The position numbers and the translations under genes were made by a program. A DNA stretch of 64,000 nucleotides. Source: Prorocentrum cordatum. Lineage: Eukaryota. The stretch lies in contig CAUYUJ010000203.1 in assembly GCA_963575745.1 (NCBI GenBank), forward strand, positions 124,001-188,000, given 5' to 3'. Below the pieces are notes generated by a model, which was not told the origin of the DNA, searched no databases, and was given only the letters and a program-made list of their open reading frames with translations. Of the stretch, positions 6,862 through 62,714 are shown one piece after another; within the stretch, counting starts at the first letter, position 1, and each line of letters opens with the position of its first letter.

Positions 6862-6894
6862 GAGTACATGCCGGTCAAGAGCTGCCCCGATGAG
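6862..6894 (+). CDS. PKD2-like exon a (EYMPVKSCPDE)
   Basis: cccgAG|GAG...GATGAG|GC, phase 0/0; the Cys sits in a position like that of the TOP-domain Cys. Linkage to the next exon is inferred. Confidence 0.6.
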
Positions 6895-9800
6895 GCTCGG
6901 GAGCCTTGGGACAGGAGTCGATACAAACGGGGTTCAGCCAGAGCGCTGAATCTTGCGGGATCCTGCGAAGCCAGGCTGGCTGGCGCGCTGGATCCTTTCA
7001 GGAGTTCGCAGGATCCTGCAATTCCTGACTGGCCCGTGTTTGCATTAACCCATGTCTGCACAAGCTTGACATGCTCCCACGGGATGGTCGGGGGTGGACA
7101 GACCTCCTGCCCTGACACGTCGATTAGCGAATTGGCCGTTTTCGGTTCGCGAGAGGGCGTCGCGGCCGTCATTTTTTGCGGATCCAGGTCCGTCGGTCTC
7201 GGTCCCGGGCCGTTTTCACGAAGGTCCGTCCACCGCCGAGAGGGGGGGGGGGGGAAGGTGCGCCCTCGCCGCGGGCGGCGGGCGCGCACGCGGCCAGGCC
7301 CGCGCGCCCACCGGGGGCCTCTGCGCGGAGGCCCTCGCGGAGGCGGTCGCGAGAGGGGCCTTCGATAGGGGGCCACACGCGAACCCTACCCCTACCCCCC
7401 ACGATTTCTGAGGGGGAGGGTGGGGTTCACTTCGCTCGGGAGCTCCCGAACGAAGTGAACCCCACCCTCCCCCTCAGAAATCGTGGGGGGTAGGGGTAGG
7501 GTTCGCGTGTAAGCCCCCATTCGAGGGGCCGTCGGGGCCCCGGGCGGGCCTTCGGAGCCTGAGTCGGCGGCGAGGGAGGGGGGGAAAGCGAGGAGGAGAA
7601 GGCCTGCTCGCCTGCTCAGAAGGCGGCGTGGCTTCTCAGGAGCCCGCCATCTTGGAAGTTTCCTGCGTCTTCGGGGAAGGCTCAGGGGACTTCTCAGGAG
7701 GCTAGGGGGCTTCCAGGCCTTTTGAGAAGGCCCGCCCCTTCTCCTCCTCCTCCTCCTCCTCCTCCTCCTCCTCGTCCTCCTCCTCCTCCTCCTCCTCCTC
7801 CTCCTCCTCGTCCCCCTCCTCCTCCTGTTCCTCCTCCTCTTCCCCCCCGGGGCCCGCCGCCGATGAAGACGCCGGAGAACTCCGGGGGCGTCTGGAGTCC
7901 TGCGCGGAGGCCTCGGAGGCCTCGCGGGTCAGCGCCTCCTCGGCACGGCGGCTCTCCGTCGCAGGATGAGGTTCGCGGTCTCTCTGTTCCGCATCGGGCG
8001 GGGGGGGGGGGAAGGGGCACTCGTGGCCGCGGCTGGGCGCGGCTCTAGCAGCTGGTCGGGGTGGTGGCCGATTTGGGGATCGATTCTCACCGACATCTCG
8101 ATCTGCTACAGAATTGATTTATCATTTTTTTTCTGCTCGCCGAGAATGTTTGCACACCCGGGGGACTTTTACGTACCTTTTTGTAGATCTGGCGGGAATT
8201 GTAATTTTGTGGTACCTCAATGTTGTTTGTGGTCGGTCTTCTACTCGAACATCCCCCTCGTTTTCCTCGCCCGCCCTGCAGGAGTTGGTGGCTGAGGCTC
8301 CTGGAGGTGCTCGCCGCAAGAGCGGCGGTGCCCCGCGGAGGCGCACGCCATCTGCAAACGTACCCGGGCCTCCTAGGGAGGGCGCCCATGCCATGAAACA
8401 CCCTGCTTGCTTCCAGGGTGGTCATGGTTTTCGTATTCATTGTTTTGCCGATTGGCGCGGACCCCTGCACTCCCTCCCCCACCCCTCCCCATGGAGCAGA
8501 TCCTGGCCTCTTGGGGGCGCCTGTTTCAAGCAGGTGGAATCTGCCCCGTGAGACGAGCTGTTGCAAACAGTCGCGCTAAGCAGAGGTCCAGAGCCAGACC
8601 CCCCCTCCCCCCCCCGTTCCGCCCAATGTCGAAACGCCGAATAAGAAAACGGCCACGTGCGCTGGGTTACTCGGGTTCCATGGTTCTTCGATGGAACGCG
8701 TCCTCGCACAATCATCGACAAGGCTAACCTCCAGCATATATATATATATATATATATATAACCATATCAACATCACCCGATTTCACCCGTACGATACAGT
8801 GGAAACCCGTGCCAAGAAACACCCGGTTTGCCTCCAGGGGTTCGATGGCTCTACGGTGGAAAATGTGGCGTCCCCACACCAAAAAACGAATGGACGTCCT
8901 GGGGTCTCAGGGCGGGCTTTCTTGCGGAAGGTTTTTGGTGGTCGAGTTATTATTGTACAACCGTCAAGAAGGGTACTTTCTAAAATAGTTAACACCAATT
9001 TGATATCACCCTCTTTCACCCGTTCAATATCGTTCCCTTCAATGTCGAAGCAGAGCGGAACGCGGTCTGGGCGGGTGCGGCTCGGAATTTCCACGATGGC
9101 CGACATTGGAGAGACGGCGCCAGCAAATATTTTGCACACAATGCCACCCAACGCCAGGACATCACGTCGACAAGGAAGCTTGACACATTTGGTTATAGGT
9201 TCTTGCGTCAAGGGTACTATGTCCTGGCTTGTTCAAAACAGGGCCCCCGTAGATCTTGACCCCTCCATGGGTGAAGCAGTGGCGAAGCGTCCTGGCTCGC
9301 CAATTGGTTCACCAACCAGTGTTCTAATATCTCGTTGTGGTTTGCACGACATGTCCTTGGAACACTTCTGGCTGAGGCCATCTTGGTTTAACACATCGCT
9401 TTTTGGTTTTTGAAGTTTCGCCTTTCCTATATGAGAAGATGTTAGAACGTTCGTTTTTGTTCAAGGACATGCCGTAGCATGCTTACCCGAATGCGCGGAC
9501 CGCTTGTCCCTGCTCAACGGTGGCTCGGTTTCATCCCGAGTTGTGTTGACGGCTCCGCATCCCGAGAACGGCCCCCGCGACAGAAAGACAGAAAGTATGC
9601 GAGTTACTTTTGTTCAGGACGCTGGAGGAGGTCTGAAGCTCCTCGCCCTCCCGCTTCCGCAGCAATTTTTGGCTCCGGCCCCTCGCCGACGCGCCGGCCC
9701 CGCGGCGATCCGCACATCCTCCTCCGGCGACGCGTAGGGGTGACCTTTTTTTCGCCGGAGTGACGCTCGGCGCGGGCACACCGGGCCCCTCCGATGGCTG

Positions 9801-12800
9801 AGCGCGATGCGACGGCAGCGGCTTGCGCGCTTGGGTCTGGCCGCCACGCGCCCCCCGGAAGCACTCCCTACGTGTGGCCGAGCCTCCTTTTGTCGGGGGT
9901 CCCCAAACGCGGTGGTGACTACACCGTGCAGCGAGTCGGTGGGGATTCGGAGTCATCGCACGGTCGTGGGACTCGGGTCGTTCTCCGAGGACGTCTCGGG
10001 CGACAGGGGCCTCCGGGGTCCCAAGACCGTGCGGTGACCTGCCGTGCGGTGAGGTGTGGGGAGATTTGAGGTCACCGCACGGTCCGTCACCGCACCGTTT
10101 CGGGACTCCAAATTTTGAGCGCGACGCGGAGGGCCCGGCCGCAGGGAGCCGGCGCGGGCGCCTCGCGATGCGGGAGCACGCGGCGGGCCTCGTTTCGCCG
10201 GCGGCCGCCTCCTGTTGCGAGGTGCCGAGGTGCTGCGAGCGCCCCTCGCGGGCGGCCGGTTGGGCCCGCACCGCGTGGTCACTCTGGCGGAGGGCCACTC
10301 CAGGTCGGGCAGGTCCTCCTCCTCCTCCTCCTCCTCCTCCTCCTCCTCCTCCTCTACCCTCCTCCTCCCGCTGCCCCGGGGGTCGCGCCCGCGCGCCGCC
10401 GACAGGCGAACGCGCCGCAGCGCAGCGCGGGGAGCACGCGCCGTGCGAGGCGCCGCGCGGCGAGGCCGGGCTCGTGGCAGGCGGCGAGCACCACCTGGTG
10501 GCGGCGGAGCCCCGAGAGGCGGCAAAGGTGCCCCTCCCACTGTCAGGAGGAAAAGAAACACACAGACACAATTAATCTTCGATTCCCCAGAAAATATGGG
10601 AAAGTATGGGAAGTGGGGGGGAAGACAGAAACCCAGAGAATGTTGGAAAATATGGGGAATATTTTTATTTGTGTGTATTTATTTGTGTGTCCTGGGGCCC
10701 CTTCACACTGCCCCGTGCCTCGTTAAAGCGACGCGAAGATCGGGACAAAAGCGGATCGGGATCACTCGAAATCTCTGGGAGTCGGCGGGTGTGGAGGATG
10801 TATTGGGCGCCGCGGCCGCTCCAGAGCGTTGCGGAGCGCTCTGAGAGCGCTCCGGAACGCTCTGGAGCGATTTATCCCGATCCTAGCCCTGCCCTCTGCC
10901 TCGTTCTGTCCGCCTCTCGGGGCCTCCCGGGTGGCCCTCGTCGCCACCGCCGGGGCTCGCTCGCCTCGAGCTCCTGACCGGAAGGCACCTCAGGAGAGGT
11001 CTGGGGAGCACCTTCACGCCGCACGGGAAGGATGGTGCTCTTGCATCTTTCCCCTGCGGCCCAGTCTTGCCCGCGCCCCGCTTTTGAAAAGCTTCGACCT
11101 GGGCGTCAAAGGCCCGTGCATCCTTATCGCGCCTCCTTGTGCCACGGGCTGACTGTCGCGGCATCAGCACCTCTTGGATTCCCCAGGATCAAGAGAGCGT
11201 AAGACCCGGGTACAAGGGACTCGGAAATCCCCGACGAGGTCGTCAAACAAGTGACGAGGCCGAGCCTGCATTTTGACGAGGCCTCCCGCTGCAGACATCC
11301 CACGAAACTCCTACTCGTCAGAATCCGAATCGCGGTCGTCAAAAAGCGATGGCGAACCCGAGTCCTGGCAAACCCGGGTCCTACGCTCCCCCGCCAGGAG
11401 CAGGCGGGCCTCCTGCCCGCGCGCGCGGACAGCGGCGGGCACGAGGGCGCCGCCCTGCGGCCCGGCGGGCGCGCGGGCTGCCCGACGTGGCCCGCGTGCG
11501 CGGCCGCGCTCGTCGGACGACGGCAACCGGGGCGCCGGCACCGGTCCGGGGGCAGAGGCGGGCGGGCGGCAATGTCGGGGGCGGAAAAGAGGGGGGGGAT
11601 GACTAGGGGGGGGTGGATATCATGGCGGGGGCCATGGTATTTCCCCAGATCTCATGGCGCCTCTTCTGATTTCATGACGTCCCTGGCCCCCCCGCTGGGC
11701 CGCGCACATGCCGCTGGTCATGATTTGCACCCCCCCCTCTTGGACCCCCCCCTCTTGGCCGCTCCCGATAATGTGAAGTCGGGCATGTTCATCTACAGGA
11801 GGAAGGTCCAGAAATAGTTCACCAAAGTAGTTTGGGGACGATGTTCTACACATGAGCAGCTATTTTTTGACATGTTTTGGATATCCTCTTGACGATTGCC
11901 CATTGTTCGTCGGAGTCGCGCGTGGGAGGACATGCTCGACATAATTGGTTGACCCACGTGGGGGGTGAAGAAAAGGGGCTTCATGGGGTCCATTGAGGGC
12001 CCCCTGCGGAGCCCTTTAGGGCCCTGCTCTTTCCCCTCCGTTTGGGTCAACCCCCACCACCACCCGCCCGAGCAGAGGCCCAGCCTGGGTCGAGGATCGG
12101 TGCATGAGTCGAAGAGGAAACAACGCCATACACATGATTGTTTGACGCTGCGCGCGGATTTCTTGGATCCACGCTGGACCCCCAAGGCGGCGCCTCCGGC
12201 GCCGCCCCTGGCGCGCTCCGCGCGCCAGAGAGGAGGGGCCAGCGCAGATCCAAGAAATCTGGGCGGAGCGCCAAAAGTTTATGTTGATGGCGTTTGATAT
12301 TGTTCTAATGAGTCGTCTTGACTTGGCTGGGAAGGGGCGTGCGCTGGCTAGGAGACACTCCCTGGAGACGCGTGTTTTTTTGTTTACCCTTTGGGCCATA
12401 ACGCGCGTTATGCCCATTCCCCGCCCCCTTCCCCCCAACGTGACGCTCCCCCTTTCAGTGCGTTCCCGGCACTGCGACGGCGTGTCTGGCACCACACTAT
12501 GTGGTGTGGGGGGGGGTTCGCTACGTTATGCTCCCTCTCCCGTTCCCCCCCTCCTCCCCCCCATAACGCCCGTCATGGCCGCGACTGCAAAAATGCGCGC
12601 GAGGTGAAATTCAGCATCGGCGCTGGCATCATCCGCGGTCGAATGCCAAAGCATCAAAATACTTGGGCTCATGACCCGGCATAGTCCTGGCGGATCCCGC
12701 TGGATCCCGCTCGTCCAGCTCCATTCGGGGTTGTGTCTTGGCCGATGCGGCTCGATGGCCCCGGGATCGGGCTCGGGAGCCTTTCGCCGTTCTCGCGAGG

Positions 12801-15800
12801 CGTTCCCCCAGGAACTGCATCCTACCGTAAAGGCATACACCAGGAGGGGAAGAACACACTGCCACAATGGAGTTGATCATCCACGCCCAGGAACATCTGG
12901 GAAGATACCGGCGGTGGGGGGAAGACGAACACCCATGGAAAAAACATTGGAAGCATATGAGGGATCCTGGGAGTTGTCTTTCTTCATTGGCGTACCCCCG
13001 GGCCCCTTCCAGCCGCGTGCATATGTCCGGAGGTCCGCGCGGATTCCTGGGGTCGACGCTGCGCCTCCCCCTCTTGGCGCTGCAGAGCCCGCCAGGGGCG
13101 GCGCCGGAGGCGCCGCCAGGGGGGGCCAGCGCCGCTCCAGGAGATCAGCGCGCAGCGCGAACCTCCGAAGTTCGGCGGCGAGCGAGGGGGGGGGGAGTGA
13201 GAAGGGTCGGGGTCGGCAAAGAGGGGGGTGATGACTAGGGGGGGGGGATATCATGGCGTGGGCCATGATATTTCCCCCCCAGATGTCATGGCGCCTCTTC
13301 TTGTTTCATTACGTCCCTGACCCCCCCGCTGGGCCGCGCACATGCCGCCGGTCATGATTTGCACCCCCCCCCCCCTCTTGGACCCCCCCCTCTTGGCCGC
13401 TCCCGAAAGGGGGATGGCCTTCTCAGAAGGCAGACTTCTCAGAAGCCCTCGCGCCTCCCGAGAAGCTGTGGTTCGTCCTCGGGGAAGGCTGTTGGACAAC
13501 CTCTCAGAAGGCCGGGGGACGTCCGCCCCTTTTCACTTCCCCCCCTCGCTCGCCGCCGAGAAGTGCTGTGCTCCTGTCATGGTGTGTCCCTCGATCCAAA
13601 CGCCCGCCCTGGGCCCAAGGCTGGTTCTGGCCAGGGCCCCGTGCTGGTGCGCAGAGTTGGAGTAGGAGATCGATTACAGAGTTGTTTGATCCCCAAATTG
13701 TTTTTTGTAGGTCTACGCCGTCTCTACGTAGACATTCTATGAATACTAAAATAAGGCTCCGTCGATCTACGAACATGATGCTCGTATACCGACGAAGCCT
13801 CAGCATTTGTTTGTGGATCTGGCGGGGAAAAATCATTTGGGGGTAGATCAATTCTTCGGGGAACGAGCAAAGACATAAGCATAAAAACTCGTAGGTCCGC
13901 GCGGATTTCTCGGATCGGCGCTGGATCCCCCTCCCCGGCTCGCGGAGCGCGCCAGGGGCGGTGCCGGAGGCGCCGCCATGGGGGCCCCAGCGCGGATCCG
14001 AGAAATCCGCGCGGACCTCAGAGTTTTTACGTTTATGTCGTTCTGCGTTCTCCTCACACCGCGTCGGGCATCTCAATTCTGCAGCCGATCTCCTGCTCGA
14101 CGCGTTGCCGTCGTCCCGCCTCGCGGCGGCCGTGCTCGCGGCGGCGGCCTCGCTGGGCCTCGGCGGGGTCCGCGCGCAGGGGTCCAGAGAGGCGGGCCGC
14201 CTCCTCTCGCTGCAGCGCGACCTCGTGCAGTTCCACTGGGTGCACGACATGGCCCGCTGCGTCGGCGTGGGCGGCGGGCCGGAGGGGGCCAGGACTGAGG
14301 GGTTGATCTTCCACCACCACCGCCATGAGCTGGAGGGGGGAGGGAGGTGGATGAGGAGGAGGAGGGGGAGGAGGAGGCGGAGGACCCCCTCCCCCTCCTG
14401 CTTGTGGCACAGGCCCACCAAGGACGGGTGGCCGCGGAGGAACATTGGGGAACAACCAATGACATGAACATACAAACTCGGAGGTCCGCGCTGGACCCCC
14501 CTGGCGGCGCCTCCGTCGCCGCCCCTGGCGCGGGACGGGGGTCCAGCGCGGATCCGAGAAATCCGCGCGGACCTCCGAGTTTTTATGCTTATGTCATTGC
14601 TCGTTCCCCGAAGAATTGATCTACCCCGAAATGATTTTCCCCCGCCAGATCCACAAACAAATGCTGAGGCTTCGTCGGTATACGAGCATCATGTTCGTAG
14701 ATCGACGGAGCCTCATTTTAATATTCATAGAATGTCTACGTAGAGACGGCGTAGACCTACAAAAAACAATTTGGGAATCAAACAACTCTGTAATCGATCT
14801 CCTAGGCTTCGTCGGTCTACCCACTGCCCCTTGCCTCGTGTTTTCGCCTTTCTGGGCCTCCCGGGAGCCCCTCGTCGCCACAGCGTTCTAGTCAGAAGGC
14901 GCCCTGGGGGAGCTCCGGGTGGACAGAACCCCCAACAGTGACACGTCGATTAGTGAATTGTCCGTTTTCGGTTCTCGAGAGGGCGCCGTGGCCGTTATTT
15001 TCCAGGCTTGCGCCCACCAGGTTTGGGCCTCAGGTCGTTTTCACTAAACCACGTTTTACTAAAGGGGGGTCTGTCCATCCCCGAAATTGGCTGTGTCGGT
15101 ACCTTCTGGTTCCCCCAACAGGCGGGCAAGATTTGTATCCACATCCACTGCGTCCTGGAGTTTCGGATTCCGTTCCCCAGGAGATGCGCAGTGGATGTGA
15201 ATGCGAATATTTGGTTTCTAGAGGCTCGATCTTTCTCCATGTCCACTGCGCCTCGGCTTTTCGGCGCCCCTGCCCAGAAAGTCCAAGACGCAAAGGATAT
15301 GGATATAAATCTGTCCCGCAAGGAGAGGTGCCAGTCTCGTGCTCACCAGCTGCGCGGAGGCGCCGCTGGTGTTCACGATGCCCGGGTTGGAGGACAAGTT
15401 CATCCGAGTGGCCGGGAGGCCAGACCTTTGCGTGCATAGTCCTTTGGAGACGCCGAAGCTGCGCTTGTGGAACTGCAGCGAGTATTTGAACATGCAGTTT
15501 ATCTTGCAGGCATCCCCCGGGAACCGTACCAGGGGGTCCATCCGTGGGCTCTGGAATTCGACCATGTGCATGGGCGCCTTGCAGGACAGGGTGGGTGAGC
15601 CGATGGAGATGCACGAGTGCACGAACAGCACGACCGACTTCTTCATGATGAATCTCGTGCTCGAGGGGTCCCTTCTGGGCGCAGCGCTGGACCCGGACAG
15701 CGAAGTGCAGGCAGATGCTGGAGGGGCCGGCCCAGGGTTGAGGCTCAGATCCGGGGTCGCCAAGGCCAAAGCTGCGATCGACGAGGCTGAGGCCCTGGCG

Positions 15801-16396
15801 GTGTCGATCTTGACGCAGGCGGCCAGCGGCGCCACGCAGGCGGTGACGAACGCCACGGAGGTCGTCGAGGCTTCTCTGAGGGAAGCGGGGGCGATGTCGG
15901 CCGGGGCGTCAGCGATCCTCCAGAATGAGCTCAACAGGACAGGGGAGGCCGTGAGGAATTGGGTGCGGTGGCACTGAGGGTTCGCCGCTTTGCCGATGCG
16001 GCATGGCCAGGCGTCCCCGTGGCAAGCCTGCCCTTCTACAACAGCACCAGGGCGCAGGACGCCCCGGCGTCCCCCTGCCCCTTTCCCCCCCCCCCTCCCC
16101 CCCTCCGTAAGCTGTACACGGTCAGTCCGTGCCGCCTCAGTTACAGCGCTTCAGTTCGACTTCCGCGAAGTGGAGGTCGACGAACAAAAAGTCGGTCCGA
16201 GCCGTCGTCGCGCACCTTGGGGCCAGGAGCATGTTCACTATATCATGCTATGCCTGTCCACCCCGGTGTGGGAAATGACGGCCCAAACACTGTGTGTATG
16301 CGTGTGTGTGTACATATATATATATATATGCATACATGTATACATATGTATGTATATACATACCTGTATATAAAAGTGCATGTATGTATGTATGTA

Positions 16397-16427
<31 letters not shown>

Positions 16428-16454
16428 GTGTGTATGTATGTATGTATGTATGTA

Positions 16455-16515
<61 letters not shown>

Positions 16516-19500: not shown

Positions 19501-20566
19501 CCCCGTAAGGGTATAAACTTTCCAGCCGCCCTGGGGCAGGTGTCCCCGGCGGCGAAACAGTTTATGTTATACCGTTCTTCGCACGTTAAGGGATGGGGTC
19601 CTGAGGACGAGGTGCCTCAAGCAGTGTGAATCCGTGTTTGAATCCCAGCCGATCCGTGTGTCCCTATCCCTCCTGGCCCCATCTTTGGAGCGCCCAAGGG
19701 TGGGAGGCTCCAGCGATCTGTGCACCTGCACCGATTCTGGACCAGCCCATCCTGCGCCCTGGATCGGCGCATCTATTTGCAACGCACGGCTTGGTGGTAC
19801 CAGTGCGATGGATAGTGGTCAACATGTTGTTTGCCTGCGCAGTTGCCGACTACCCAAGCAAGCCTGATCGTACTTGTGCAATCTGCAAGAAGGTTGGCCT
19901 TTTTGCAGACGGTCCACGCAGGGCTCCCACCCTGCTCAGCACCGTTTGGGATTACGAGATGGTGGTCAGTAGGTTCGGATCCAGAATGTGATGGTGAAAA
20001 CTATTTCTGCACACCGACCTAATCACTGGCGCAGTTTGGAAACAGGCCGAGCGGCGTAACCGCCACCCCCGGATAATAAAGTCCCCCCCCTTTCCAGCCT
20101 GAGAGTTTATGATCCCCGACCAATACAGATTTGGTCGGGGGAGTGGGGTGGCAAGGCCGAATTGTAGCATCGCCGGGGAAGGTGCGAATCGAAGATGCTA
20201 TCTTCTTATCTCCATTAGCAACATCACCAAAAGCGTGTGGCATGGCAATTGGTGTCTCACCATTTCAGCTTTCGCGAGTCACGAACGTGTGGCACGGCAA
20301 TGGGATTCTCACCATTTCATTTTTCCCAAGTCACGAACGTGTGGCAGGGCTTTGGGGTTTTCACTTTGACAAAGGTCTTCTATCCCTGGCCCCCGTCCCG
20401 AACTTCTTTGCCCCGGATTGTTTATCACAAGAAACGGCCCACCATGTATTCTTACACATACAATTTGGTTATATTAATCAAAACCTGTGATCCAGAATTC
20501 GATTTGTTGTTGGAGATTTGGTCCTGGGGCCTCCCTCCGCTCCCTCCCCTTCTCCTCACTTCCTAT

Positions 20567-20598
<32 letters not shown>

Positions 20599-49747: not shown

Positions 49748-49779
<32 letters not shown>

Positions 49780-50054
49780 GCCGTCGCCGTCGACGTCGTC
49801 GTCGTCGTCGTGGTCGGTCCCCTGTCCGTCCCTTTGGGGGTCGGGTCGACGGTCCGCGGCCGCCCCGCCGATCAGCGCTGCCGCTGGCCAGGCCGACGGT
49901 ACGCGGCCGCCCCGCCGCTTGCCGGGGCCCGGCCTGCAGGGAAGAAAGGTACACCCCCCAAAAGGGGTTCGATCGAAGACGGCGGGTATCGAGGGTTTGG
50001 GAAATACGCGTTATTGGACACTCGAGCAGATAAAGGCGAACAGTCTCAAAATGA

Positions 50055-50133
<79 letters not shown>

Positions 50134-53100: not shown

Positions 53101-53349
53101 TCGCTTGCCGGGGGTGATTTTTATGGGGTGGACGTTCTGCCCGACCCACCCGCGACCCATTTGCGACCCACCCGCGACCTACCCACACATAGGTTGTAAC
53201 GAAAAAGTCGGCGCCTGCGGCGGCGGGCTCGCTGCATGATGTTTGGAGTTTTGGCGCCTGCGGCGGGCTTCTCCAGAGTCTCGCAAACTGCCGACGTCCC
53301 CACCGCCCCCTTACTCTTACCCGCATCTGCGGGGTGCTACGTTTTTTGT

Positions 53350-53387
<38 letters not shown>

Positions 53388-56300: not shown

Positions 56301-59300
56301 CGAAGGAGAGGGGGATCAGGGGTCGGGGAGGAGGAGGAGGAAGATAAGGATCCAGGGTCTAGGTCGCTCGTGGCGGATCCAGGATAGATGAGGAGGATCC
56401 CGAAAACTTACAAACGTCCGAGGAGGATCCCCAATCGGTGCTCCCCTATCCTCGGATACTCGACCCTCGACCCACGCACCACCACCCCGCACGCAGCCAC
56501 CCGCCCGCCGCCACCCTCCGTCCGGCTGGCTCACCCGCGGGAGCGCGAAGATCATAGCGCTGCGCGCGTCTCGCTCTGGGCCAGAGCGGCCGCCCTCCTC
56601 CAAGGAGGGCTCGAGGACAATCGCGCATCGCGGGTCCTGGAGCGCGACGCGCGAGGCGACCTATAGGTCCAACCGCCCCCGAGCCAGCGTTCGGCGCCCG
56701 CCGGCGCAGCGGCGGGCGCGGGCGGCGGGCGCGGCCGCGGGCGCCGCCGAAGCGGCGCGGTTGCCTCTCCGTCGGAGCGGCGGTGGCAGGCGCGGCTCGG
56801 CGACGGGGGCAGTCCCCCGCGGGCGCGGCGGCGCCGGCACTGGCGGCGTCAGCGCGCGGCGGGGTGGCCCCGAGCGGGGCGGCGGCGGCGGCGCCAGCGG
56901 CGAGCGGAGGCCACATCCACAAGGTGATCGAGCCGATCAGTTTCTTCCTCCAGCCGTACAACACGTGGTCGGACTACGTCTGGCGGGGCAGGGCGGGCCA
57001 CGTTCGGCAGCAGCGGGGGGGGGACAAGTGGCAAGCGTTCGAGGTAAAGAAGGAGGAGGAGGAGAAGCAGGAGGAGGTGAACAAAAAATTGTAGAGAAGG
57101 GGAGGAGGAGGCGGAGGAGGAGGAGGAGGAGGAGGAGGAAACCAGGAGGAGAGCCACGATCGCCCGATTTGCCCCGCAGGGGGGCCAAGGCGGCGGCCAG
57201 CGTGGCAGTCACCGGCCCATCGGGCCTGCGATTGACAACTACAGCCCCGCCACAAGGACCTTTTCCCTCGTCCCCTCCCCGACGGCTACCGGAGCAGGTG
57301 CACCAACGGCAAAGGCAAGGTCACCAACGACAAAAGCAAGGGTACCTTCCTCAAACCACACGACGATACCGCCAAACAATTCCGCGGAAGGGCGAGCATA
57401 GATACAAGAAGGGCAATGGAAAACAACAGCCCCAACGTGAAGGAGGCGTCCCCCCACCAGGAGGAGACAACGCGAGCCCAGCCAGGATTACAAAATCACC
57501 AGGACCATCAAAAGCGTCCTGCCAGAAACAATCTCCAATGAAAGGAAGATGGGAATAATGGCGGGGCCGCAAAACAACGGAAGACAGCAGCAGCCATCGT
57601 CAAGAACAGTGCCGTTGGATTCCATTTTCTGGATGCTGAGACCCACGTCGCCTCCACGAAGCCATGATCATCAGCAGCACCCCGCTCGACCCACAAACCA
57701 AAACCATCGAACGTACCAAACATGTGATGGAGGACCAATTCAAGAATGCCAAAGCACACCACAAGATGGTGGACATCTACCTGACAACGCCGGGGGGGAC
57801 ATCGCCGAACCTCACGCCGCCAGGAGTGACATCAACGACGCCATGGACGTCGTTCACAACGACACATGGGCAGCCGACGAAGAGGTAGAACCATGCCAGA
57901 CGGAACGCCCGACGAGAAGGGCTGCAACACTGGCTGCAAGGAGACATACGCGGGCCAGGGAGTCGACGCAGGGGCAGGACATCAGAACATGCCCAACAAC
58001 TTAGAAAGGAGGATAACCATCGCCTGTTGCATGACGTCAGAAACACCAAGAAGGAGGCCAAGGATAAGTTCGACAGCCTCAACGCTATCAAAAACTAGCC
58101 TGATGCCGCACGGGAAGAAGCTGCAGCCAAACTACACGAATTACATCACCCACGTGGCGCCGAGTCCAACGTCGAGGGCGAGCGGACCAATCTGAGACGC
58201 GTTGCAAGCGAACTATATATCCGAGTGAATCGAAATAGCCTGCCGCCTCCATGGATGCCCGAACGAGCCACAGCCAGGCTTCACAGCGAGGAGGACATGG
58301 CACCCATCAAGAAGGCCAACCAACATCGACTTCCGGAAGACCCGATTGCCCAAGGAAACGACGACATACATCGTGGAGTTTGAGATCAAGCTAGACAAGC
58401 TCTGCAAGCACAGCCTCAACGCCATGCATCAACATCTGCGGCTGGCAGAGAGGACAGCTGTCGAAATGGTCGCCTATTACAGAGAGACGACGACGGCGGG
58501 CCACCGCATCTCGACCATGGAAGGCCCCGGGGATCAACGACGTCGTCGAGCCGGTGGAGCTCCGCAGACAGGGACAGCACCGACAACCAGTTTTTCGGGG
58601 GAGCGTACGACCCGGGTTTGCCAGGACTCGGGTTCGCCATCGTTTTTTGACGACCGCGCCTCGGATTTTGACGAGGAGGAGTTTCGTGGGATGTCTTCAG
58701 CGGGAGGCCTCGTCAAAATGCAGGCTCGGCCTCGTCATTTTTTGACGACCTCGTCGGGGATTTCCGAGTCCCCTGTACCCAGGTCTTATGTCCCCCTGAG
58801 TTTTGCAAGGCGCACGTCGAAATATCAGACCGAAAAAGGCGCGCGGGGGCTGGTTTTCAACGCGGCGTCGCCGACAGCGAGAGGCAGGTGCGCGCCAGAG
58901 GCGCTACACAAGCTCGGCGTAATGAGCATTCGAGCCTTGGAAGCACGAGGGGAAATGAGCGCCGGGAGCAGACGCAACAGCATACAGCCCAAACAGAAGG
59001 TCGATTCCGATTTGCTCTGAAGTGAGGGGGGTTCGGCCCCCGCCAGCACAGCGAGGCCCATCGGCGCGAGATCGACTTGCGCGAGCAGAAGGCGGACACA
59101 CGAAGGCAATGGCACGCCACTCGCCAGAAGCGCACCCGGGAGGCCCACCAGGAGTACGTCTACGCCCAGCTAGCCACCGCTCATGCGCCAGAGCGCCTGC
59201 CGCAAGTCGAGATGCTAGACCAGCTCGAACAGGCGCCATCCACCGAGTCCCCCCGCGAAAACCCAGCGATCGTGACTTCCACGCTGCAGGCGGAGCCGAT

Positions 59301-62300
59301 GCCCGCGCCCGGCGCAACTCAGGGTGCCGCGCGACCTACCCAGACGCAAAGTGACGAGGCAGCCAGGGGCGCCGACAACATGGCAACACGTGCTCACAGG
59401 CGTAAATTCCCCCACCATGATTCTTAGAAAGTTGCGGGCGGATGAAACATAAAACGCCATGTCCGCCCCGGCCCCCCGTCGGAGGAGCGGATGCGCCAGA
59501 AGGAGGAGGAGGAGGAGGATGAAGAGGACGAGGACCAGGACGAGGACGAGGAAGAGGAGGAGGATGATGAGGAGGAGGAAGAATAATAATGTTAAGCAAA
59601 AGCATAAGCAAAAGTAGAAGCAGAAGCATAATAATAATACCTAGAATGATAATAAGACGACGAATAATAATACGAATAATAGTAACACTAACAGTAATAA
59701 TAACAATAATGATTAACATAATAGTAATCGTAGTAACAATAATAGTAATAGTAACAATCATAGTAATAGTAATAACAACACTAGTAGCAATATTAGTAAC
59801 AATAATAGTAATAATAATAACAATCGTAATAATAAGAGGAGGAGGAAGAAGAGGAGGAGGAGGAGGAGGAAGAGGCGGAGGCAGAGGCGTAGGAAGAGGA
59901 GGAGGAGGAGGAGGAATAAGAAGAAAAGGCATAATAATAAGAAGAAGACGAAGAAGAACAGGAGGACGAGGAGGAGGAGGAAGAAGAAGAGGAAGACGAA
60001 GAGGAAGAAGAGGAGGAGGAGGGGAGTAGGAGGAGGAGGGGGTGACGAGGAGGAGGAGGAGGAAGAACATGTGGACGGGGGTCATGGGGCAATATCTGGC
60101 ACCTCCCGGGCCGTCGAATGTGCCAGCCGTGGGGGCCGTTGGTCCTCCTCCACGCCTCCTCCTCCTCCTCCTCCTCCTCCTTCTCCCCCCTCCTCCTCCT
60201 CCTCCCCCCTCCTCCTCCTCCTCCTCCTCCTCCTCCTCCTCTTCGACCTTCTCCTCCTCGTCTCCCGCACGTCCCACTATCTTCCCAGGCCTACGAGAAC
60301 CAAAACGTGTTCACCCAAGCGCTGTCATGGCGCTGGAATTTGCGTCCCCGAGACAGACGGGCAGAGACCAGCGGATTCGGCTCTGCAGCGAAGCCGACTC
60401 CACAAGGGGTGCATGGGCCATCGCTATCGCTATCGCTACAGAGGATGGCCATGGGTTCGCATACCTTCGCACAGTTGCAGCCCAAACCTCAAGTGCTACA
60501 TCTAGCGGCGACTACGGCTAACTCACGTCCAAAACGTCAGACCAGGCAACTCTCATATGGGCCTACGCAATCTACGCGCAGAAGGACATATTACGGCAAC
60601 CCCCATGCAAGGGTCCACGCCGACTCCAAGGTGGCAAAGGGTCTTGCTGAAGAACGGTGCAGGTACGAACCAACCGTGACGTGTCAGCCACGGCCAGGCA
60701 TTACACGACCTTCCAGCAACATCAGCCGATTCCACACCGACCGCGTCTACGCCTACGCCGGCCGCCCGTGGAAAGAGCTTGCAGACTTGGTCGCCGAGAG
60801 GCAAACCAGCCGCTACGACAACAAGCCGCAAGCTGAATCGGCCAAAGCTCTCGACGCACAGAGCCACGACAAAAGGAGTAGCTGCGCCAAGCCGACGACG
60901 AAACGAAGAACGCATACCTCAAGTTGACCTCCAATGGGCAACAATTCATTGCACCCACGGCAGTACTTGCACCTGAGCACTTTCAACCACCCAATGATGA
61001 GAGCAGCAAAAGGTCGGCGTCGACATAGCGATTATTTTTTCTCATTCAACGCGCGCAGTTTCAAGCAACCAACCTACACCAGCGGGAAGCAGTACCGCAG
61101 GGTATCTTGGATCGAGGCCATCAAGTCCAATTTGGGTCATGCTGGTGATATGAGTGAATATATGAGAAAACGACGATTTATCGTCGACTCGAGACTGTTG
61201 AGCGTCAATTGGCGTCGACTCGCAAGAGCCAGCAAGATGACATGGGAGGCTGCCGCGAGTTTCCACAGGAGGCGGTACATTCAACACGGATTTTAAAGGC
61301 AGAGCGACTTTCCCATGTTTCCTTTGCATTTTTCTTCTTCGACCCATCCTTGGCCACTTTCGCTGGCCGTGCCCCTTTCGAAGGGTGTCGGCATGCCCCC
61401 CCCCCCCTCCAGGGCCCTTGCATCCGTCCCGTGCACCATTATTACTCGCTCTGACTGTAGGCCTCCGCGATGGGATTCGAGGAGATGGGGCCGGAGGAAC
61501 GCGCCGCGTCGCTGATGCCATGGCGATTCGGCTCGAGGTGGCCTCCCGACTTTCTCCACGCCGACGGCGCGGGAGCATCGCCGATGCGTCGGCGACGCAT
61601 TGGCGAGGCGGCGCGATCCACCGACCCCATCTACTCCGACCCCTGCCCGACCCTATGCAGGAGGCCTCCAGTGATGGCAAACTCTGGATGGGGCAATTAT
61701 CGTCCCTCCCCCCCCACCTTGGATCCGCTGAGGGTGTTGGGCACGTGCTGTCGGAACGGGTGGAGGGGGGGTTGGAGGAGGAGGAGGAGGAGGAGAATGA
61801 GGAGGAGGAGGAGGAGGAGGAGGAGGAGGAGGAGGAGTTGGAGGTGGAGGATGGGCTGGATGGGCAAGCTCCGTCGGAAGGTTTGTCGCCCACCCCTCGA
61901 TCAATGTTCCACCCATAGAAGGCTGTCGACGCAGAAGTCTATGCCTCCCGCCCGGCCGTTCTTGCCGTCCTCGTCCGCGCTCCGGTCACGCGCCGTCCCG
62001 CGGCCCCCGTGGCCCGGTTCGCCCGTGGGGGTTCTGGAGGGCGTGGCCTCGGCGGAGCGCAGTGCCTCGGGCGCCAACGGGAGGTGCCGTCGTGCAGTTG
62101 CGCACCGTTTCCACCGTGTTCCTCGGGTCGGGCGAAAGGGGGGGGTTGGGAAAGGGGGGGGTACGAAATCTGCTGCAGGCAGCTGGTTTCGGCCTCACCG
62201 AGGGGCCCGTTCCTCGATGCATGGCCGCCTCCGGCGCCGGGAGGCGCCGGGAAAATCAGCTACGTGAGCTGATTCTCAAGCCCCCCCTTTGCTATCCCCC

Positions 62301-62714
62301 CTTTTCGCCCGACCCGAGCCTGGCGAGGGGACAGGAAACAGGTGGAGGATGGTCTCAGAAGGGTTCGGGAGCAGGAAGGAGGAGGGGGGTGGAGAGTGAG
62401 AGGCAGAAAGGGCGAGGGACAAGACCATCTCGAAGTCAGCAGCAGTGGAGACGGAGTCGAGGAGGACGACAAGATGGGCAAGGCGATTGCCACGGAATAA
62501 CAGGCAAGTGGGACCCGCAGGATTTTCAGTTCAGTCCCAGGGGGGCGTTTGATGATTGTTGCCGCCGTTATGGAGTTGTATTTGCATTGATGGAGGGAGT
62601 CGGACTTGCCTTTGAGGAAGGGGGATTGGGAGGGACGTATTGTGGTGCGTCATGGTGGTGAAGCTTGCCTTCGACGAGATCCCAGACCTCTACTCTAACA
62701 TTAGACTGCACGGA
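6862..62714 (+). CDS. Polycystin/PKD2-like (TRPP) cation channel, partial multi-exon gene; 5' and 3' parts not identified or outside window
   Basis: Exons 6862-6894, 19283-19321, 27048-27089, 30740-30784, 32741-32806, 37240-37266, 47189-47270, 56910-56982 and 62633-~62714 splice in frame to EYMPVKSCPDE-VFHGSLFSGNCVP-GMEPNYMLEPEPQQ-AFFPYDTQYLNTSTR-VFLKAHTSQADLRAQLRELEDQ-VWLSPHTAK-VEIVYTTYNPHLNSMTLTFINFFMNRAG-HIHKVIEPISFFLQPYNTWSDYVW-DVLWCVMVVKLAFDEIPDLYSNIRLHG. The segment L..LE..WL...T..V.I....YN.......F...G parallels the PKD2 TOP-domain motif (WLDRGTRAxFIDFSVYNANINLF...GG) and is followed by a hydrophobic helix ending in E. All acceptors are AG|G and all 8 donors are GC. Confidence 0.8.
7088..7239. 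mobile_element. MITE family D (copies ~14915-15084, ~26190-26336)
   Basis: TIR ggtggacagacc / ggtc(c/t)gtccacc; shared body tgacacgtcgattag..gagagggcgtcgcggccgtcatt; flanks GATGG/GAGGG. Confidence 0.7.
7375..7510. repeat. 136-bp loopless palindrome
   Basis: Centre GAG|CTC at 7442/7443; one mismatch seen. Confidence 0.9.
9656..9678 (+). other. Possible degenerate DinoSL relict
   Basis: TCCGCAGCAATTTTTGGCTCCGG: 4 substitutions and 1 insertion relative to DinoSL. Confidence 0.4.
11200..11383. mobile_element. TA-flanked MITE; inverted copy at 58606-58788
   Basis: About 185 bp, high similarity between the two copies; TIR gacccggg/cccgggtc. Confidence 0.75.
11575..11768. mobile_element. TCGG...CCGA MITE family A copy
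   Basis: Close copy of 13207-13406; TSD CAATG/TAATG. Confidence 0.8.
12604..12989 (+). CDS. Putative three-exon fragment of a hypothetical protein (12604-12678, 12800-12832, 12891-12989)
   Basis: All three have AG|G acceptors and GC donors in phase 0, giving VKFSIGAGIIRGRMPKHQNTWAHDP-AFPQELHPTVK-EHLGRYRRWGEDEHPWKKHWKHMRDPGSCLSSL. No family recognised. Confidence 0.35.
13172..13559. mobile_element. TCGG...CCGA MITE (family C) with GAAGT TSD, carrying a nested family-A MITE (13207-13406, TSD AAGGG)
   Basis: TIR tcggcggcgagcgagggggg / cccccctcgctcgccgccga; 5-bp direct repeats at 13167-13171 and 13560-13564; inner AAGGG at 13202-13206 and 13407-13411. Confidence 0.85.
13663..14804. repeat. Inverted pair of ~350-380 bp repeats (13663-~14040 and ~14460-14804) enclosing lectin exon 1
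   Basis: taggagatcgattacagagttgtttga... is the reverse complement of ...tcaaacaactctgtaatcgatctccta, with high identity over more than 250 bp. Confidence 0.9.
14105..15977 (+). CDS. Secreted ricin-type beta-trefoil (ricin B-like) lectin-domain protein, 2 exons (14105-14301, 15323-15977), nested in a PKD2-like intron; no ATG at the apparent start
   Basis: Signal-peptide-like LPSSRLAAAVLAAAASLGLGGVRA. Three repeats: VQFHWVHDMARCVGV...GASLVLTSC, FIRVAGRPDLCVH...LRLWNC...NMQFIL, GSIRGLWNSTMCMGA...GEPMEMHEC (C-x-x-V...L-x-x-C subdomain pattern). Several N-glycosylation sequons (NCS, NRT, NST, NAT). A GT(14302)...AG|G(15323) intron keeps the frame; TGA stop at 15975-15977. Confidence 0.7.
16290..17845. 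repeat. (TATG)n/(TCTG)n and (GGT)n microsatellites
   Basis: Direct inspection. Confidence 0.95.
19283..19321 (+). CDS. PKD2-like exon b (VFHGSLFSGNCVP)
   Basis: gcgAG|GTG...CCG|GC, phase 0/0. Confidence 0.65.
19420..19582. repeat. Foldback/hairpin element
   Basis: gggcggctggaaagtttataccc...gggtataaactttccagccgccc core; imperfect arms extend to gcgaggaacggtat / ataccgttcttcgc. Confidence 0.85.
20560..23107. repeat. ~2.4 kb (CTA)n microsatellite followed by (CAT)n
   Basis: Direct inspection. Confidence 0.95.
24611..24814. mobile_element. MITE with ~45 bp TIR; partial copy ~45450-45552
   Basis: acgcccgagatgggcactgaaagaatgggcacgatgcccaacagc versus gctgttgggcatggtgcccattctttcggtacccatttcgggcgt. 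Confidence 0.7.
25987..26189. mobile_element. MITE family C copy (others at ~7565-7745 and 46483-46683)
   Basis: Shared CTTCTCAGAAG-rich body; TSD CTGAC here and GTACC/GTATC at the 46483 copy. Confidence 0.8.
27048..27089 (+). CDS. PKD2-like exon c (GMEPNYMLEPEPQQ)
   Basis: cgcAG|GGA...CAG|GC, phase 0/0. Confidence 0.65.
27491..27665. mobile_element. Tc1/mariner-like MITE (TA|CAGT...ACTG|TA); relatives at 8797-8955, ~5263-5450, ~26560-26680, 43383-43470
   Basis: CAGT/ACTG termini with TA on both sides; shared gccaagaaacaccc..ccagggtgcc and ggtctcaggg..ggaaggttt..ggtcg body. Confidence 0.7.
28782..28945. mobile_element. MITE with cgaggcggg/cccgcctcg TIR (copy 44087-44244; relative 15119-15320)
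   Basis: Shared body ggcggtggatatgga..tattcgggcccccaggggcc..ggggcaccaggacgtcggtt. Confidence 0.75.
30740..30784 (+). CDS. PKD2-like exon d (AFFPYDTQYLNTSTR)
   Basis: cgaAG|GCG...CGG|GC; the exact 3' boundary is less certain. Confidence 0.65.
32741..32806 (+). CDS. PKD2-like exon e (VFLKAHTSQADLRAQLRELEDQ)
   Basis: gcgAG|GTG...CAG|GC, phase 0/0. Confidence 0.75.
34025..34290. repeat. GATCGAT-based ~12 bp minisatellite
   Basis: atcgatcgtgag / atcgatggtgag units. Confidence 0.85.
35820..36660 (+). repeat. Three diverged ~330 bp tandem units
   Basis: gcagcgt...acgtggg(c/a)cgcaagcgtttgcg...taggca recurs at ~35825, ~36168 and ~36490. Confidence 0.75.
37240..37266 (+). CDS. PKD2-like exon f (VWLSPHTAK)
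   Basis: gccAG|GTC...AAG|GC; supplies the conserved W..(..)T motif between exons e and g. Confidence 0.75.
37740..43000 (+). repeat. CCAAGA-rich composite minisatellite array; inverted copy ~34600-35160
   Basis: Recurrent ccaagacggcccaagaggcctccaagatgg units punctuated by aaatcattgatt..ggtttttgaaggat..gcatttg modules. Confidence 0.9.
47189..47270 (+). CDS. PKD2-like exon g (VEIVYTTYNPHLNSMTLTFINFFMNRA+G)
   Basis: cccAG|GTC...GCAG|GC, ends in phase 1; carries the YN motif. Confidence 0.85.
47410..47565. mobile_element. CATCG-rich palindromic MITE (copies ~23689-23882, ~30263-30440, ~61482-61632)
   Basis: TIR agatggggtcgg / tcgacccatct and a catcgccgatgcatcg core in four copies. Confidence 0.7.
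47745..48170. repeat. Pentamer microsatellites (CTTAG)n, (GCATA)n, (GCAAA)n
   Basis: Direct inspection; they lie immediately upstream of the SL relict. Confidence 0.9.
48235..48256 (+). other. Relict dinoflagellate spliced-leader (DinoSL) copy
   Basis: TCCGTAACCATTTCGGCTCAAG versus consensus DCCGTAGCCATTTTGGCTCAAG: 20/22 identical. Confidence 0.85.
48531..51815 (+). repeat. Tandem duplication with ~1634 bp period, containing CTTCGTGGCCCC minisatellite; third partial start at 51816
   Basis: gaactctcattcttgaagaataa starts at 48531 and 50165; the two units are colinear. Confidence 0.9.
52840..54909. repeat. Inverted CCCGCGACCCA / TGGGTCGCGGG arrays around a TIR-bounded core (53311-54074)
   Basis: The arrays are on opposite strands; ttactcttacccgcatctgcggggtgctacg versus cgtagcaccccgcagttgcagataagagtga. 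Confidence 0.8.
54910..55009. other. Assembly gap (100 N)
   Basis: Run of N. Confidence 1.
56910..56982 (+). CDS. PKD2-like exon h (GHIHKVIEPISFFLQPYNTWSDYVW)
   Basis: cggAG|GC CAC...GTC TG|GC; the phase-1 start matches exon g and it ends in phase 2. Confidence 0.85.
57240..61000 (+). mobile_element. Second decayed retroelement-like region with RNase H remnant (~60360-60800), interrupted by MITEs and microsatellites
   Basis: A/C-rich fragmented coding-like sequence; AWAIAIA, VHADSKVA and RVYAYAGRPWKELADLVA (like the RNase H HVxAHxGxPWNELADxxA motif), followed by LQWATIH, which may be the start of an endonuclease. Confidence 0.5.
62123..62317. mobile_element. TCGGG...CCCGA MITE family B (copies 6536-6720, 28332-28525)
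   Basis: TIR tcgggtcgggcgaaaggggg / cccccttttcgcccgacccga; shared body cgaaatctgctgc..cagctggtttc..gctacgtgagctgattc; AAAGA flanks the 6536 copy on both sides. Confidence 0.8.
62633..62714 (+). CDS. PKD2-like exon i (DVLWCVMVVKLAFDEIPDLYSNIRLHG), TM helix
   Basis: gggAG|G GAC GTA TTG TGG; the first G completes the TGG codon split from exon h. The donor is ambiguous between 62712 and 62717. Confidence 0.75.

What the first reader, a model, noticed from the sequence alone, without database searches (positions are those of the whole stretch)
6862..62714. Hidden PKD2/TRPP-like channel gene: nine micro-exons over 56 kb, every donor GC
Seen: nine 27-82 nt segments with AG|G acceptors and eight GC donors join in frame, including two split codons (G|GC, TG|G), and none of this is visible in the ORF track. 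Known: dinoflagellates use GC/GA donors and have G after the acceptor AG; the WL..T..V....YN motif marks the polycystin TOP domain. Inference: under 1% of the span is coding and everything else in the window is intronic. Exons g and h also join across the N gap, which supports the scaffolding there.
Basis: partly seen in the sequence, partly recalled or inferred. Interest (0 to 1): 0.75.

Follow-up and report, generated by a model that had tools for sequence, protein, structure and literature searches.

The report
Real polycystin channel gene in micro-exons

Summary
Confirmed, but ordinary. A piece of the window around 47189 pulled out two proteins: a public Prorocentrum cordatum gene model (P0001) and a 987-aa protein from a 3.4-kb transcript-like contig (P0002).

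- **Exon match.** Residues 353-516 of P0002 match nine collinear + strand blocks exactly, 164 of 164 aa.
- **Splice sites.** Each of the 8 junctions has only one split with an AG acceptor, and its donor is GC.
- **Coding density.** Exons are 27-85 nt and introns 2-12 kb. Coding sequence is 0.88% of the span.
- **Gap.** Exons g and h join across the N gap.
- **Family.** P0002 is a PKD2/TRPP-type channel. PKD_channel scores 87 bits, PKD2L1/PKD2 match at E about 1e-24, and the predicted fold matches PKD2 at TM 0.75-0.79.
- **What the window encodes.** It holds the back half of the extracellular TOP domain plus helix S2. Alone, this peptide gives only a sub-threshold Polycystin_dom hit.

In this genome GC is the commonest donor (51.4%), 79.7% of acceptors are AGG, and introns average 4.7 kb (PMC10666404). 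P0001 already contains all nine exons.

The parts
1..6861 (+). 3' part of the intron upstream of exon a; its donor lies beyond the window start
   Evidence: No match to P0002 residues 250-352 beyond 4-5 aa low-complexity words. tblastn found nothing in order. The sequence ends ...cccgAG before 6862.
6862..6894 (+). Exon a, 33 nt, residues 353-363 (EYMPVKSCPDE); AG|G acceptor, GAG|GC donor
   Evidence: Cys360 is invariant in a 50-sequence alignment.
6895..19282 (+). Intron a/b, 12,388 nt, GC..AG, phase 0
19283..19321 (+). Exon b, 39 nt, residues 364-376; AG|G acceptor, CCG|GC donor
19322..27047 (+). Intron b/c, 7,726 nt, GC..AG, phase 0; holds a 2.4-kb (CTA)n run
27048..27089 (+). Exon c, 42 nt, residues 377-390; AG|G acceptor, CAG|GC donor
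27090..30739 (+). Intron c/d, 3,650 nt, GC..AG, phase 0
30740..30784 (+). Exon d, 45 nt, residues 391-405; AG|G acceptor, CGG|GC donor
30785..32740 (+). Intron d/e, 1,956 nt, GC..AG, phase 0; a 9-nt inverted repeat, GCGGCCCGC at the 5' end with its reverse complement GCGGGCCGC 6 nt from the 3' end
32741..32806 (+). Exon e, 66 nt, residues 406-427; AG|G acceptor, CAG|GC donor; the Polycystin_dom match starts here
32807..37239 (+). Intron e/f, 4,433 nt, GC..AG, phase 0
37240..37266 (+). Exon f, 27 nt, residues 428-436 (VWLSPHTAK); AG|G acceptor, AAG|GC donor
   Evidence: Trp429 is invariant and aligns to the WLDRGT stretch of PKD2L1.
37267..47188 (+). Intron f/g, 9,922 nt, GC..AG, phase 0; holds 21/32-nt satellite arrays at 38.4-41.3 kb
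47189..47270 (+). Exon g, 82 nt, residues 437-464 (first base of Gly464); AG|G acceptor, CAG|GC donor
   Evidence: Distant homologues at 40-58% identity also hit it by tblastn.
47271..56909 (+). Intron g/h, 9,639 nt as assembled (includes the 100-N gap 54910-55009), GC..AG, phase 1
56910..56982 (+). Exon h, 73 nt, residues 464-488; completes G|GC and starts TG|G; AG|G acceptor, CTG|GC donor
56983..62632 (+). Intron h/i, 5,650 nt, GC..AG, phase 2
62633..62717 (+). Exon i, 83 nt (end 62715, GA donor) or 85 nt (end 62717, GT donor), residues 488-516; most of transmembrane helix S2
   Evidence: Helix 483-513 in the model. The end is undecided because the next exon is outside the window.
62718..64000 (+). 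Start of the intron downstream of exon i
   Evidence: No match to residues 515-640 beyond 4-5 aa words.

Best explanation
The window lies wholly inside one nuclear gene of the dinoflagellate Prorocentrum cordatum. The gene encodes a polycystin-2-like (TRPP) cation channel of about 1,000 residues. Nine exons of 27-85 nt, separated by introns of 2-12 kb full of satellites and microsatellites, are spliced through G|GC...AG|G boundaries. These are ordinary spliceosomal introns with the GC donor that is the majority type in this species. Together the exons encode residues 353-516: the C-terminal half of the extracellular TOP (polycystin) domain between S1 and S2, and most of helix S2.

The exon positions, the reading frame, the family and the fold are shown. 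That the protein forms a tetrameric, cation-conducting sensory channel is inferred from the family.
For: - **Organism and relatives.** An ORF piece around exon g hit P0001 ('unnamed protein product, partial [Prorocentrum cordatum]') and P0002 (987 aa, from a 3,421-nt contig) at 97% identity over the exon.
- **Exon match.** There are nine exact collinear blocks, and the joined translation equals P0002 353-516, 164 of 164 aa, with GC3 of 0.89.
- **Splice sites.** Each of the 8 junctions has a single AG-acceptor solution, and each has a GC donor.
- **mRNA origin of P0002 (inferred).** 987 codons sit on a 3.4-kb contig. A 1,064-aa version sits on a 4,055-nt contig. An MMETSP transcript fragment identical to residues 845-987 is in the same cluster.
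- **Continuous ORFs in relatives.** Relatives on six short metagenome-collection contigs (2.4-4.0 kb) carry long uninterrupted ORFs. Homologues at 40-58% identity hit exons g, h, e, i and c by tblastn.
- **Conservation.** Cys360, Trp429 and Gly464 are invariant among 50 aligned relatives.
- **Family.** Model pLDDT is 71-97 in ten-residue blocks over residues 351-520.
- **Genome norms.** Table 2 of PMC10666404 gives GC donors 51.4%, AGG acceptors 79.7% and mean intron 4,709 bp (passages read).
Against: - No RNA reads could be laid on the locus, because no RNA run was listed. The junctions therefore rest on protein-level identity, not on reads.
- cDNA-to-genome alignment leaves each boundary ambiguous by 2-5 nt. 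GC..AG is chosen by the AG-acceptor convention.
- A second contig holds a model (P0004) that is 100% identical to residues 622-983. The transcript could therefore come from a duplicate locus.
- The window-encoded peptide alone does not reach any Pfam threshold.
Confidence: 0.95

Rival explanations
1. This locus is a silent duplicate or redundant haplotig. The transcript behind P0002 comes from an identical copy elsewhere in the genome.
For: P0004, on a 788-kb contig, is 100% identical to P0002 622-983. The models P0154 and P0128, on the 665-kb contig that carries P0001, cover residues 593-739 at 98.3-98.6%. At least the 3' half of the gene therefore seems to exist twice in the assembly. Extensive gene duplication is reported for this genome (PMC10666404, passages).
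Against: All nine exons are intact, with 164 of 164 residues identical, GC3 of 0.89, and every acceptor and donor in place. No second copy of any exon lies in the window. The two mismatches of P0154 and P0128 sit at the very end of the alignment, where those models run on into other sequence (sequences printed).
Confidence: 0.08
2. The nine segments are a chance assembly of short open stretches picked out of thousands of AGG and GC sites.
For: The search space is huge. There are 1,465 AG|G sites and 6,129 candidate 27-82-nt AG|G..GC segments in the span, giving 13,940 stop-free readings. Single exons give no Pfam or PDB signal.
Against: The segments give an exact, collinear, 164-residue identity to an independently assembled protein and to the public model. 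Distant homologues also hit the exons.
Confidence: 0.01
3. The introns are not GC..AG. They use boundaries shifted by one or more bases (for example GG..GA), which reproduce the same mRNA.
For: Each junction has 3-6 equivalent splits, because the donor and acceptor regions share 2-5 identical bases.
Against: Only the GC..AG split gives an AG acceptor in all 8 junctions. GC donors with AGG acceptors are the published majority pattern of the species. A GT donor appears in only one split, and there it pairs with a GC 'acceptor'.
Confidence: 0.03

Closest known systems
Human polycystin-2 (PKD2) and PKD2L1, TRPP channels with solved structures (e.g. 5k47, 5t4d, 5z1w, 9dwq)
   Same: The order S1, TOP domain, S2-S6 with pore is the same. 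phmmer gives E = 5e-25 to 3e-22 over residues 408-740. Foldseek gives TM 0.72-0.79 normalised to the target over about 570-610 alignment columns. The stretch WLSPHTAKVEIVYTTYN aligns to WLDRGTRVVFIDFSVYN of PKD2L1.
   Different: Identity is only 16-19% in the structural alignments. The first half of the TOP domain is not recognised by Pfam: Polycystin_dom positions 134-186 of 199 only, at 21.8 bits, below the cut-off. The roughly 160-residue N-terminal region and the roughly 250-residue C-terminal tail match no family above threshold and are modelled at low confidence.
Public P. cordatum gene models: P0001 (this gene's 5' half) and P0154/P0128 (CAK0789235.1 / CAK0789236.1, on the same 665-kb contig)
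   Same: P0001 is identical to P0002 over residues 14-537 and so includes all nine window exons. P0154 and P0128 cover residues 593-739, and UniRef names P0154 a polycystin channel domain protein.
   Different: After residue 537, P0001 continues into 213 residues unrelated to P0002 and has no PKD_channel hit. One transcript thus appears split over at least two or three public models. The window cannot show where, because the divergence lies downstream.
Polycystin-2 genes of Symbiodinium microadriaticum (nine genes; PMC9102920, passages read) and TRP channels in dinoflagellate mechanosensing (Lindstrom et al. 2017, as cited in PMC7935092, passages read)
   Same: PKD2-type and TRP channels are already reported in dinoflagellates and linked to motility, life-history change and mechanotransduction.
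   Different: These are other species. I did not compare their sequences with P0002. I found no paper on a Prorocentrum PKD2-like channel in the held library.
Dinoflagellate nuclear intron pattern (GT/GC/GA donors, AG|G acceptors), Table 2 of PMC10666404
   Same: G|GC donors occur at 8 of 8 junctions and AG|G acceptors at 9 of 9. Mean intron length is 6,920 nt here against 4,709 nt genome-wide.
   Different: A run of 8 GC donors has a probability of about 0.005 if donors are independent at 51.4% (my arithmetic). That would still be expected thousands of times among the roughly 840,000 introns implied by the paper's gene and intron counts (my arithmetic). Exons average about 55 nt here against a genome mean of 240 nt.
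   Same: It shows the same kind of hidden micro-exon gene and received the same verdict, ordinary for this genome.
   Different: It is a different gene, and I did not re-test it.

Membership tests
Polycystin / TRPP channels (Pfam PKD_channel PF08016) | PKD_channel profile match above the curated cut-off | tested here: met
   P0002 scores 87.4 bits against a cut-off of 22.4, E = 1.3e-24, over residues 566-723. These residues are encoded downstream of the window. The 164 window-encoded residues alone give no PKD_channel hit.
Polycystin / TRPP channels | Extracellular TOP (polycystin) domain between S1 and S2 | tested here: met
   By sequence the result is inconclusive: Polycystin_dom scores 21.8 bits on P0002 and 18.3 bits on the window peptide, against a cut-off of 23.6. 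By fold the feature is met. The model has a helix (414-426) and three strands (434-445, 450-460, 466-476) before S2, at pLDDT 87-97. The whole core aligns to PKD2 at TM 0.75-0.79 normalised to the target.
Polycystin / TRPP channels | Six-helix voltage-gated-like core with pore (Ion_trans) | tested here: met
   Ion_trans scores 47.8 bits against a cut-off of 25 over residues 522-725. Long helices lie at 157-195, 483-513, 527-562, 574-613, 620-655 and 690-726.
Polycystin / TRPP channels | Closer to TRPP than to the sister group TRPML | tested here: met
   All 16 PDB sequence hits at E of 2.3e-21 or better are PKD2 or PKD2L1, and no TRPML appears among the 24 hits. Foldseek gives TM 0.72-0.79 for most PKD2 and PKD2L1 chains (0.68 for two of those listed), against 0.41-0.53 for TRPML1.
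Polycystin / TRPP channels | Tetrameric cation-conducting channel | not testable with these tools
Dinoflagellate GC-AG spliceosomal introns | GC at the intron start, AG at the intron end, G as the first exon base | tested here: met
   GC..AG holds at 8 of 8 junctions, the only split with an AG acceptor at each. G follows AG at 9 of 9 acceptors.
Dinoflagellate GC-AG spliceosomal introns | Removal from a transcript | tested here: inconclusive
   The feature is met at protein level: the joined exons equal transcript-derived P0002 and the MMETSP fragment P0152 is in the same cluster. It could not be tested with reads, because no RNA run was listed.
Introner elements as defined in PMC10666404 (inverted repeat of 8-20 nt and direct repeat of 3-5 nt within 30 nt of the intron ends) | Terminal inverted repeat of 8 nt or more within 30 nt of both ends | tested here: inconclusive
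   2 of 8 introns qualify: d/e with 9 nt, and g/h with 10 nt of GCC repeat. As a control, 4 of 56 non-cognate end pairs also qualify. Duplex energy is -28.0 for cognate ends, -25.7 (sd 6.2) for non-cognate ends and -28.4 for random GC-rich pairs. The shared bases at donor and acceptor number 5, 2, 5, 2, 5, 3, 4 and 2, of which 2 follow from the G|G..G|G consensus alone.

The most novel reading that the evidence does not exclude
The tiny exons may be found by the splicing machinery because each is wrapped in a short, very GC-rich intronic collar. The first 15 intron bases are 86% GC and the last 15 are 84% GC. GC falls to the 60% background within about 100-200 nt, and unused GGC and AGG sites in the window have flanks of 68% and 64% GC. 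The collars could be an exon-definition or end-pairing signal, or relics of introner ends, that lets 27-85-nt exons be recognised across multi-kb repeat-filled introns.

In addition, the six consecutive phase-0 introns make exons b-f (39, 42, 45, 66 and 27 nt) skippable in frame. That would allow variation of the sensor (TOP) domain by the differential exon usage reported for this species.
Probability: 0.15. Interest if true: 0.4.

Novelty: already known. Interest (0 to 1): 0.15.

Why it matters
The finding shows that a reader working from raw sequence alone can recover a correct nine-exon gene fragment at under 1% coding density. That is a useful validation of the scan.

Biologically it adds little. 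The exons are already in the public model, and GC donors, AG|G acceptors and long introns are published norms of P. cordatum. Polycystin-2 genes are also already reported in dinoflagellates.

There are two small practical gains. First, the public model P0001 appears to lose the channel half of the protein, and separate small models on the same contig hold it. The proteome therefore under-reports this channel as an 'unnamed protein product' with no domain. Second, the g/h join supports the order and orientation of the scaffold across the N gap.

Tried and rejected
- **Whole genome.** None is held for this window.
- **Six-frame Pfam scan.** I used stop-free ORFs instead.
- **Single exon ORFs.** The ORFs around exons a, g and i gave no Pfam family. 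The two sent to the PDB sequence search, around i and g, gave no polycystin hit, so single exons are too short.
As a regular expression it found nothing in any frame or across any GC..AG junction. Partial motifs led first to chance sites at 8941, 12345 and 33206, which I dropped.
- **Short query.** The 28-aa exon g was too short for the homology search. A 54-aa ORF piece worked.
- **RNA runs.** No RNA holder was listed, so I did not call the read-laying tool.
- **Exact cDNA.** The metagenome-collection scan did not return it. It found only relatives at 30-71% identity.
- **Flanking exons.** None was found in the window.
- **Other genes in the introns.** I scanned 391 stop-free ORFs of 100 aa or more on both strands. 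None had a credible Pfam family. Eight ORFs had hits at E of 0.001 or better, all in repeat or low-complexity sequence: YxzE, New_glue, MINT_RAM7 (four ORFs) and MARVEL below their cut-offs, and RXT2_N at 24.0 against 22.3 in a TCG/TTG repeat.
- **RNA families.** Rfam gave 0 matches at gathering thresholds.
- **Introner-type end pairing.** It was not better than the controls.
- **Extra exon copies or alternative exons.** None was found.
Full report
**What the window is**

The window is 64,000 bases at 61% G+C, with one run of 100 N at 54910-55009. It is dense in microsatellites and satellites. No whole genome is held for it.

**Finding the exons**

The finding gave only outer coordinates, so I first read both ends. 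The stretch after the AG at 6860-6861 reads EYMPVKSCPDE. An 82-nt stretch from 62633, after an AG, ends at 62714. Single ORFs around these stretches gave nothing in Pfam or in the PDB sequence search.

Partial matches at 8941, 12345 and 33206 were chance sites.

I then listed all AG|G..GC segments of 27-82 nt. There are 6,129 such segments with 13,940 stop-free readings, which shows how large the search space is. One candidate, at 47189-47270, read VEIVYTTYNPHLNSM.... A 54-aa ORF piece around it hit two proteins at 97% identity over the exon:
- P0001, 737 aa, named by NCBI 'unnamed protein product, partial [Prorocentrum cordatum]'.
- P0002, 987 aa, from a 3,421-nt JGI contig, with precomputed PKD_channel and Ion_trans domains.

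Exact word matching of P0002 against all six frames gave nine collinear + strand blocks covering residues 353-516. Everything else was scattered 5-6-aa low-complexity words.

For each junction I listed every split that reproduces the protein. There are 3-6 equivalent splits per junction. Exactly one has an AG acceptor, and in all eight its donor is GC.

The exons are:

| Exon | Coordinates | Length (nt) |
|---|---|---|
| a | 6862-6894 | 33 |
| b | 19283-19321 | 39 |
| c | 27048-27089 | 42 |
| d | 30740-30784 | 45 |
| e | 32741-32806 | 66 |
| f | 37240-37266 | 27 |
| g | 47189-47270 | 82 |
| h | 56910-56982 | 73 |
| i | 62633-62715 or -62717 | 83 or 85 |

- Joined by coordinates, the exons translate to P0002 353-516 exactly, 164 of 164 aa, with GC3 of 0.89.
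- All nine acceptors are AG|G, and all eight exon ends before GC are G.
- The introns measure 12,388, 7,726, 3,650, 1,956, 4,433, 9,922, 9,639 (with the gap) and 5,650 nt.
- Coding sequence is 0.88% of the span.
- Exons g and h are consecutive in the protein, and the N gap lies between them, so the scaffold join is supported.
- No exon for residues before 353 or after 516 is in the window. The whole window therefore lies inside the gene.
- The 3' end of exon i cannot be fixed here. Position 62715 would give a GA donor and 62717 a GT donor.

**What the gene encodes**

- P0002 has PKD_channel at 87.4 bits (cut-off 22.4; residues 566-723) and Ion_trans at 47.8 bits (cut-off 25). It also has a sub-threshold Polycystin_dom match at 21.8 bits (cut-off 23.6; residues 413-465).
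- Against solved structures it matches PKD2L1 and PKD2 at E = 5e-25 to 3e-22 over residues 408-740. In that alignment LRELEDQVWLSPHTAKVEIVYTTYNPHLN lies against the WLDRGT...YNANIN stretch of PKD2L1.
- A search of 1.84 billion representative proteins found 4,279 relatives at E of 0.001 or better and 385 at 1e-30 or better.
- In an alignment of 50 relatives, Cys360, Trp429 and Gly464 are invariant. Cys374, Pro386, Glu425, Thr434, Asn445, Asp489, Glu503 and Gly516 are nearly so. Every window exon except d and h carries at least one of these conserved residues, counting the split codon of Gly464 to exon g.
- An AlphaFold model built from that alignment has pTM 0.68 and ten-residue block pLDDT of 71-97 over residues 351-520.
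- The model's best PDB matches are PKD2 chains at TM 0.75-0.79 normalised to the target. PKD2L1 follows, and TRPML1 reaches only 0.53 or less.
- The window therefore encodes the back half of the TOP domain (a helix and a three-stranded sheet) and helix S2.
- The 164-residue peptide alone gives only Polycystin_dom at 18.3 bits and no PKD_channel hit.

**Transcript evidence**

- I infer that P0002 comes from mRNA, because 987 codons sit on a 3.4-kb contig. Its cluster also holds a 1,064-aa version that begins with Met, on a 4,055-nt contig, and an MMETSP transcript fragment identical to residues 845-987.
- Relatives on six short contigs (2.4-4.0 kb) of the metagenome collection carry long uninterrupted ORFs.
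- No RNA run was listed for the locus, so I laid no reads.

**How unusual this is**

Table 2 of the P. cordatum genome paper (PMC10666404; I read passages) gives these values:

| Feature | Genome-wide | This gene fragment |
|---|---|---|
| Donor GT / GC / GA | 24.7% / 51.4% / 23.8% | GC at 8 of 8 |
| AGG acceptors | 79.7% | 9 of 9 |
| Mean intron | 4,709 bp | 6,920 nt |
| Mean exon | 239.9 bp | about 55 nt |
| Exons per gene | 11.7 | nine in the window |

- Eight GC donors in a row has a probability of about 0.005 if donors are independent (my arithmetic). Among the roughly 840,000 introns implied by the paper's gene and intron counts (my arithmetic), that would occur thousands of times.
- The public model P0001 is 100% identical to P0002 over residues 14-537. 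The nine exons are therefore already annotated.
- Polycystin-2 genes are reported in Symbiodinium (PMC9102920, passages). TRP channels in dinoflagellate mechanosensing are cited in PMC7935092 (passages).
- I found no paper on a Prorocentrum PKD2-like channel.

**What is slightly new**

- After residue 537, P0001 runs into 213 unrelated residues and has no channel domain.
- Two small models on the same 665-kb contig (P0154, P0128) hold residues 593-739.
- A model on another contig (P0004) is 100% identical to residues 622-983 and then continues into a second PKD-like N-terminus.
- One transcript thus seems split over several public models, and the locus may be duplicated.

**The rest of the window**

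- Among 391 stop-free ORFs of 100 aa or more on both strands, none has a credible Pfam family.
- Rfam found nothing.
- One ARAGORN tRNA call is not supported by Rfam.
- These results are consistent with 'all intronic' but cannot exclude other micro-exon genes.
- The introns do not show introner-type end pairing beyond the controls.
- The 15-30 nt next to every splice site are far more GC-rich than the background or than unused GGC and AGG sites. I leave this as an open lead.

Noticed in passing
window 48236-48256 (+), inside intron g/h: A near-copy of the dinoflagellate spliced leader, with 2 mismatches to a 21-nt motif that I recalled from memory. It is the only match in the window, and none of 100 shuffles gave one. 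It suggests a retroposed, leader-headed element inserted in the intron.
   Followed up: partly
window 48464-51816: A unit of about 1.65 kb is present twice in tandem at 84-95% identity (families D8, D9, D11, D13, D14 and D16). Each copy holds arrays of a 21-nt satellite (TTCGTGGCCCC...) and TTG/TCG microsatellites.
   Followed up: partly
first and last 15-30 nt of the introns next to exons a-i: Intron ends next to the micro-exons are 84-86% GC in the first and last 15 nt, falling to about 60% within 100-200 nt. Unused GGC and AGG sites have 30-nt flanks of 68% and 64% GC. In 20,000 random draws of 16 windows of 30 nt, none reached a mean of 80% GC.
   Followed up: partly
introns a/b to f/g; exons b-f: Six consecutive introns are phase 0. 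Exons b-f (39, 42, 45, 66 and 27 nt) are all multiples of three, so skipping any of them would keep the frame. I saw no evidence of skipping.
   Followed up: no
beyond the window: P0001, P0154, P0128, P0004: The public model P0001 diverges from the transcript protein after residue 537 and lacks the channel domain. P0154 and P0128 on the same contig hold residues 593-739. P0004 on another contig is 100% identical to residues 622-983 and is fused to a second PKD-like N-terminus at 30% identity to residues 67-235.
   Followed up: partly
window 52839-52985 and 54656-54909: An 11-12-nt satellite (CGGGTGGGTCG) runs right up to the N gap. Its reverse complement forms an array 1.7 kb upstream, which probably explains why the assembly broke here.
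   Followed up: no
window 10176-10254 (+): ARAGORN calls a 79-nt tRNA-Asn (gtt). Rfam finds no tRNA there, even at E up to 1. It is probably a false call.
   Followed up: yes
window 20563-22935 and 16889-17843: The introns hold very long microsatellites: (CTA)n of 2.4 kb and (GGT)n of about 1 kb. These cause the sharp composition shifts in the profile.
   Followed up: no
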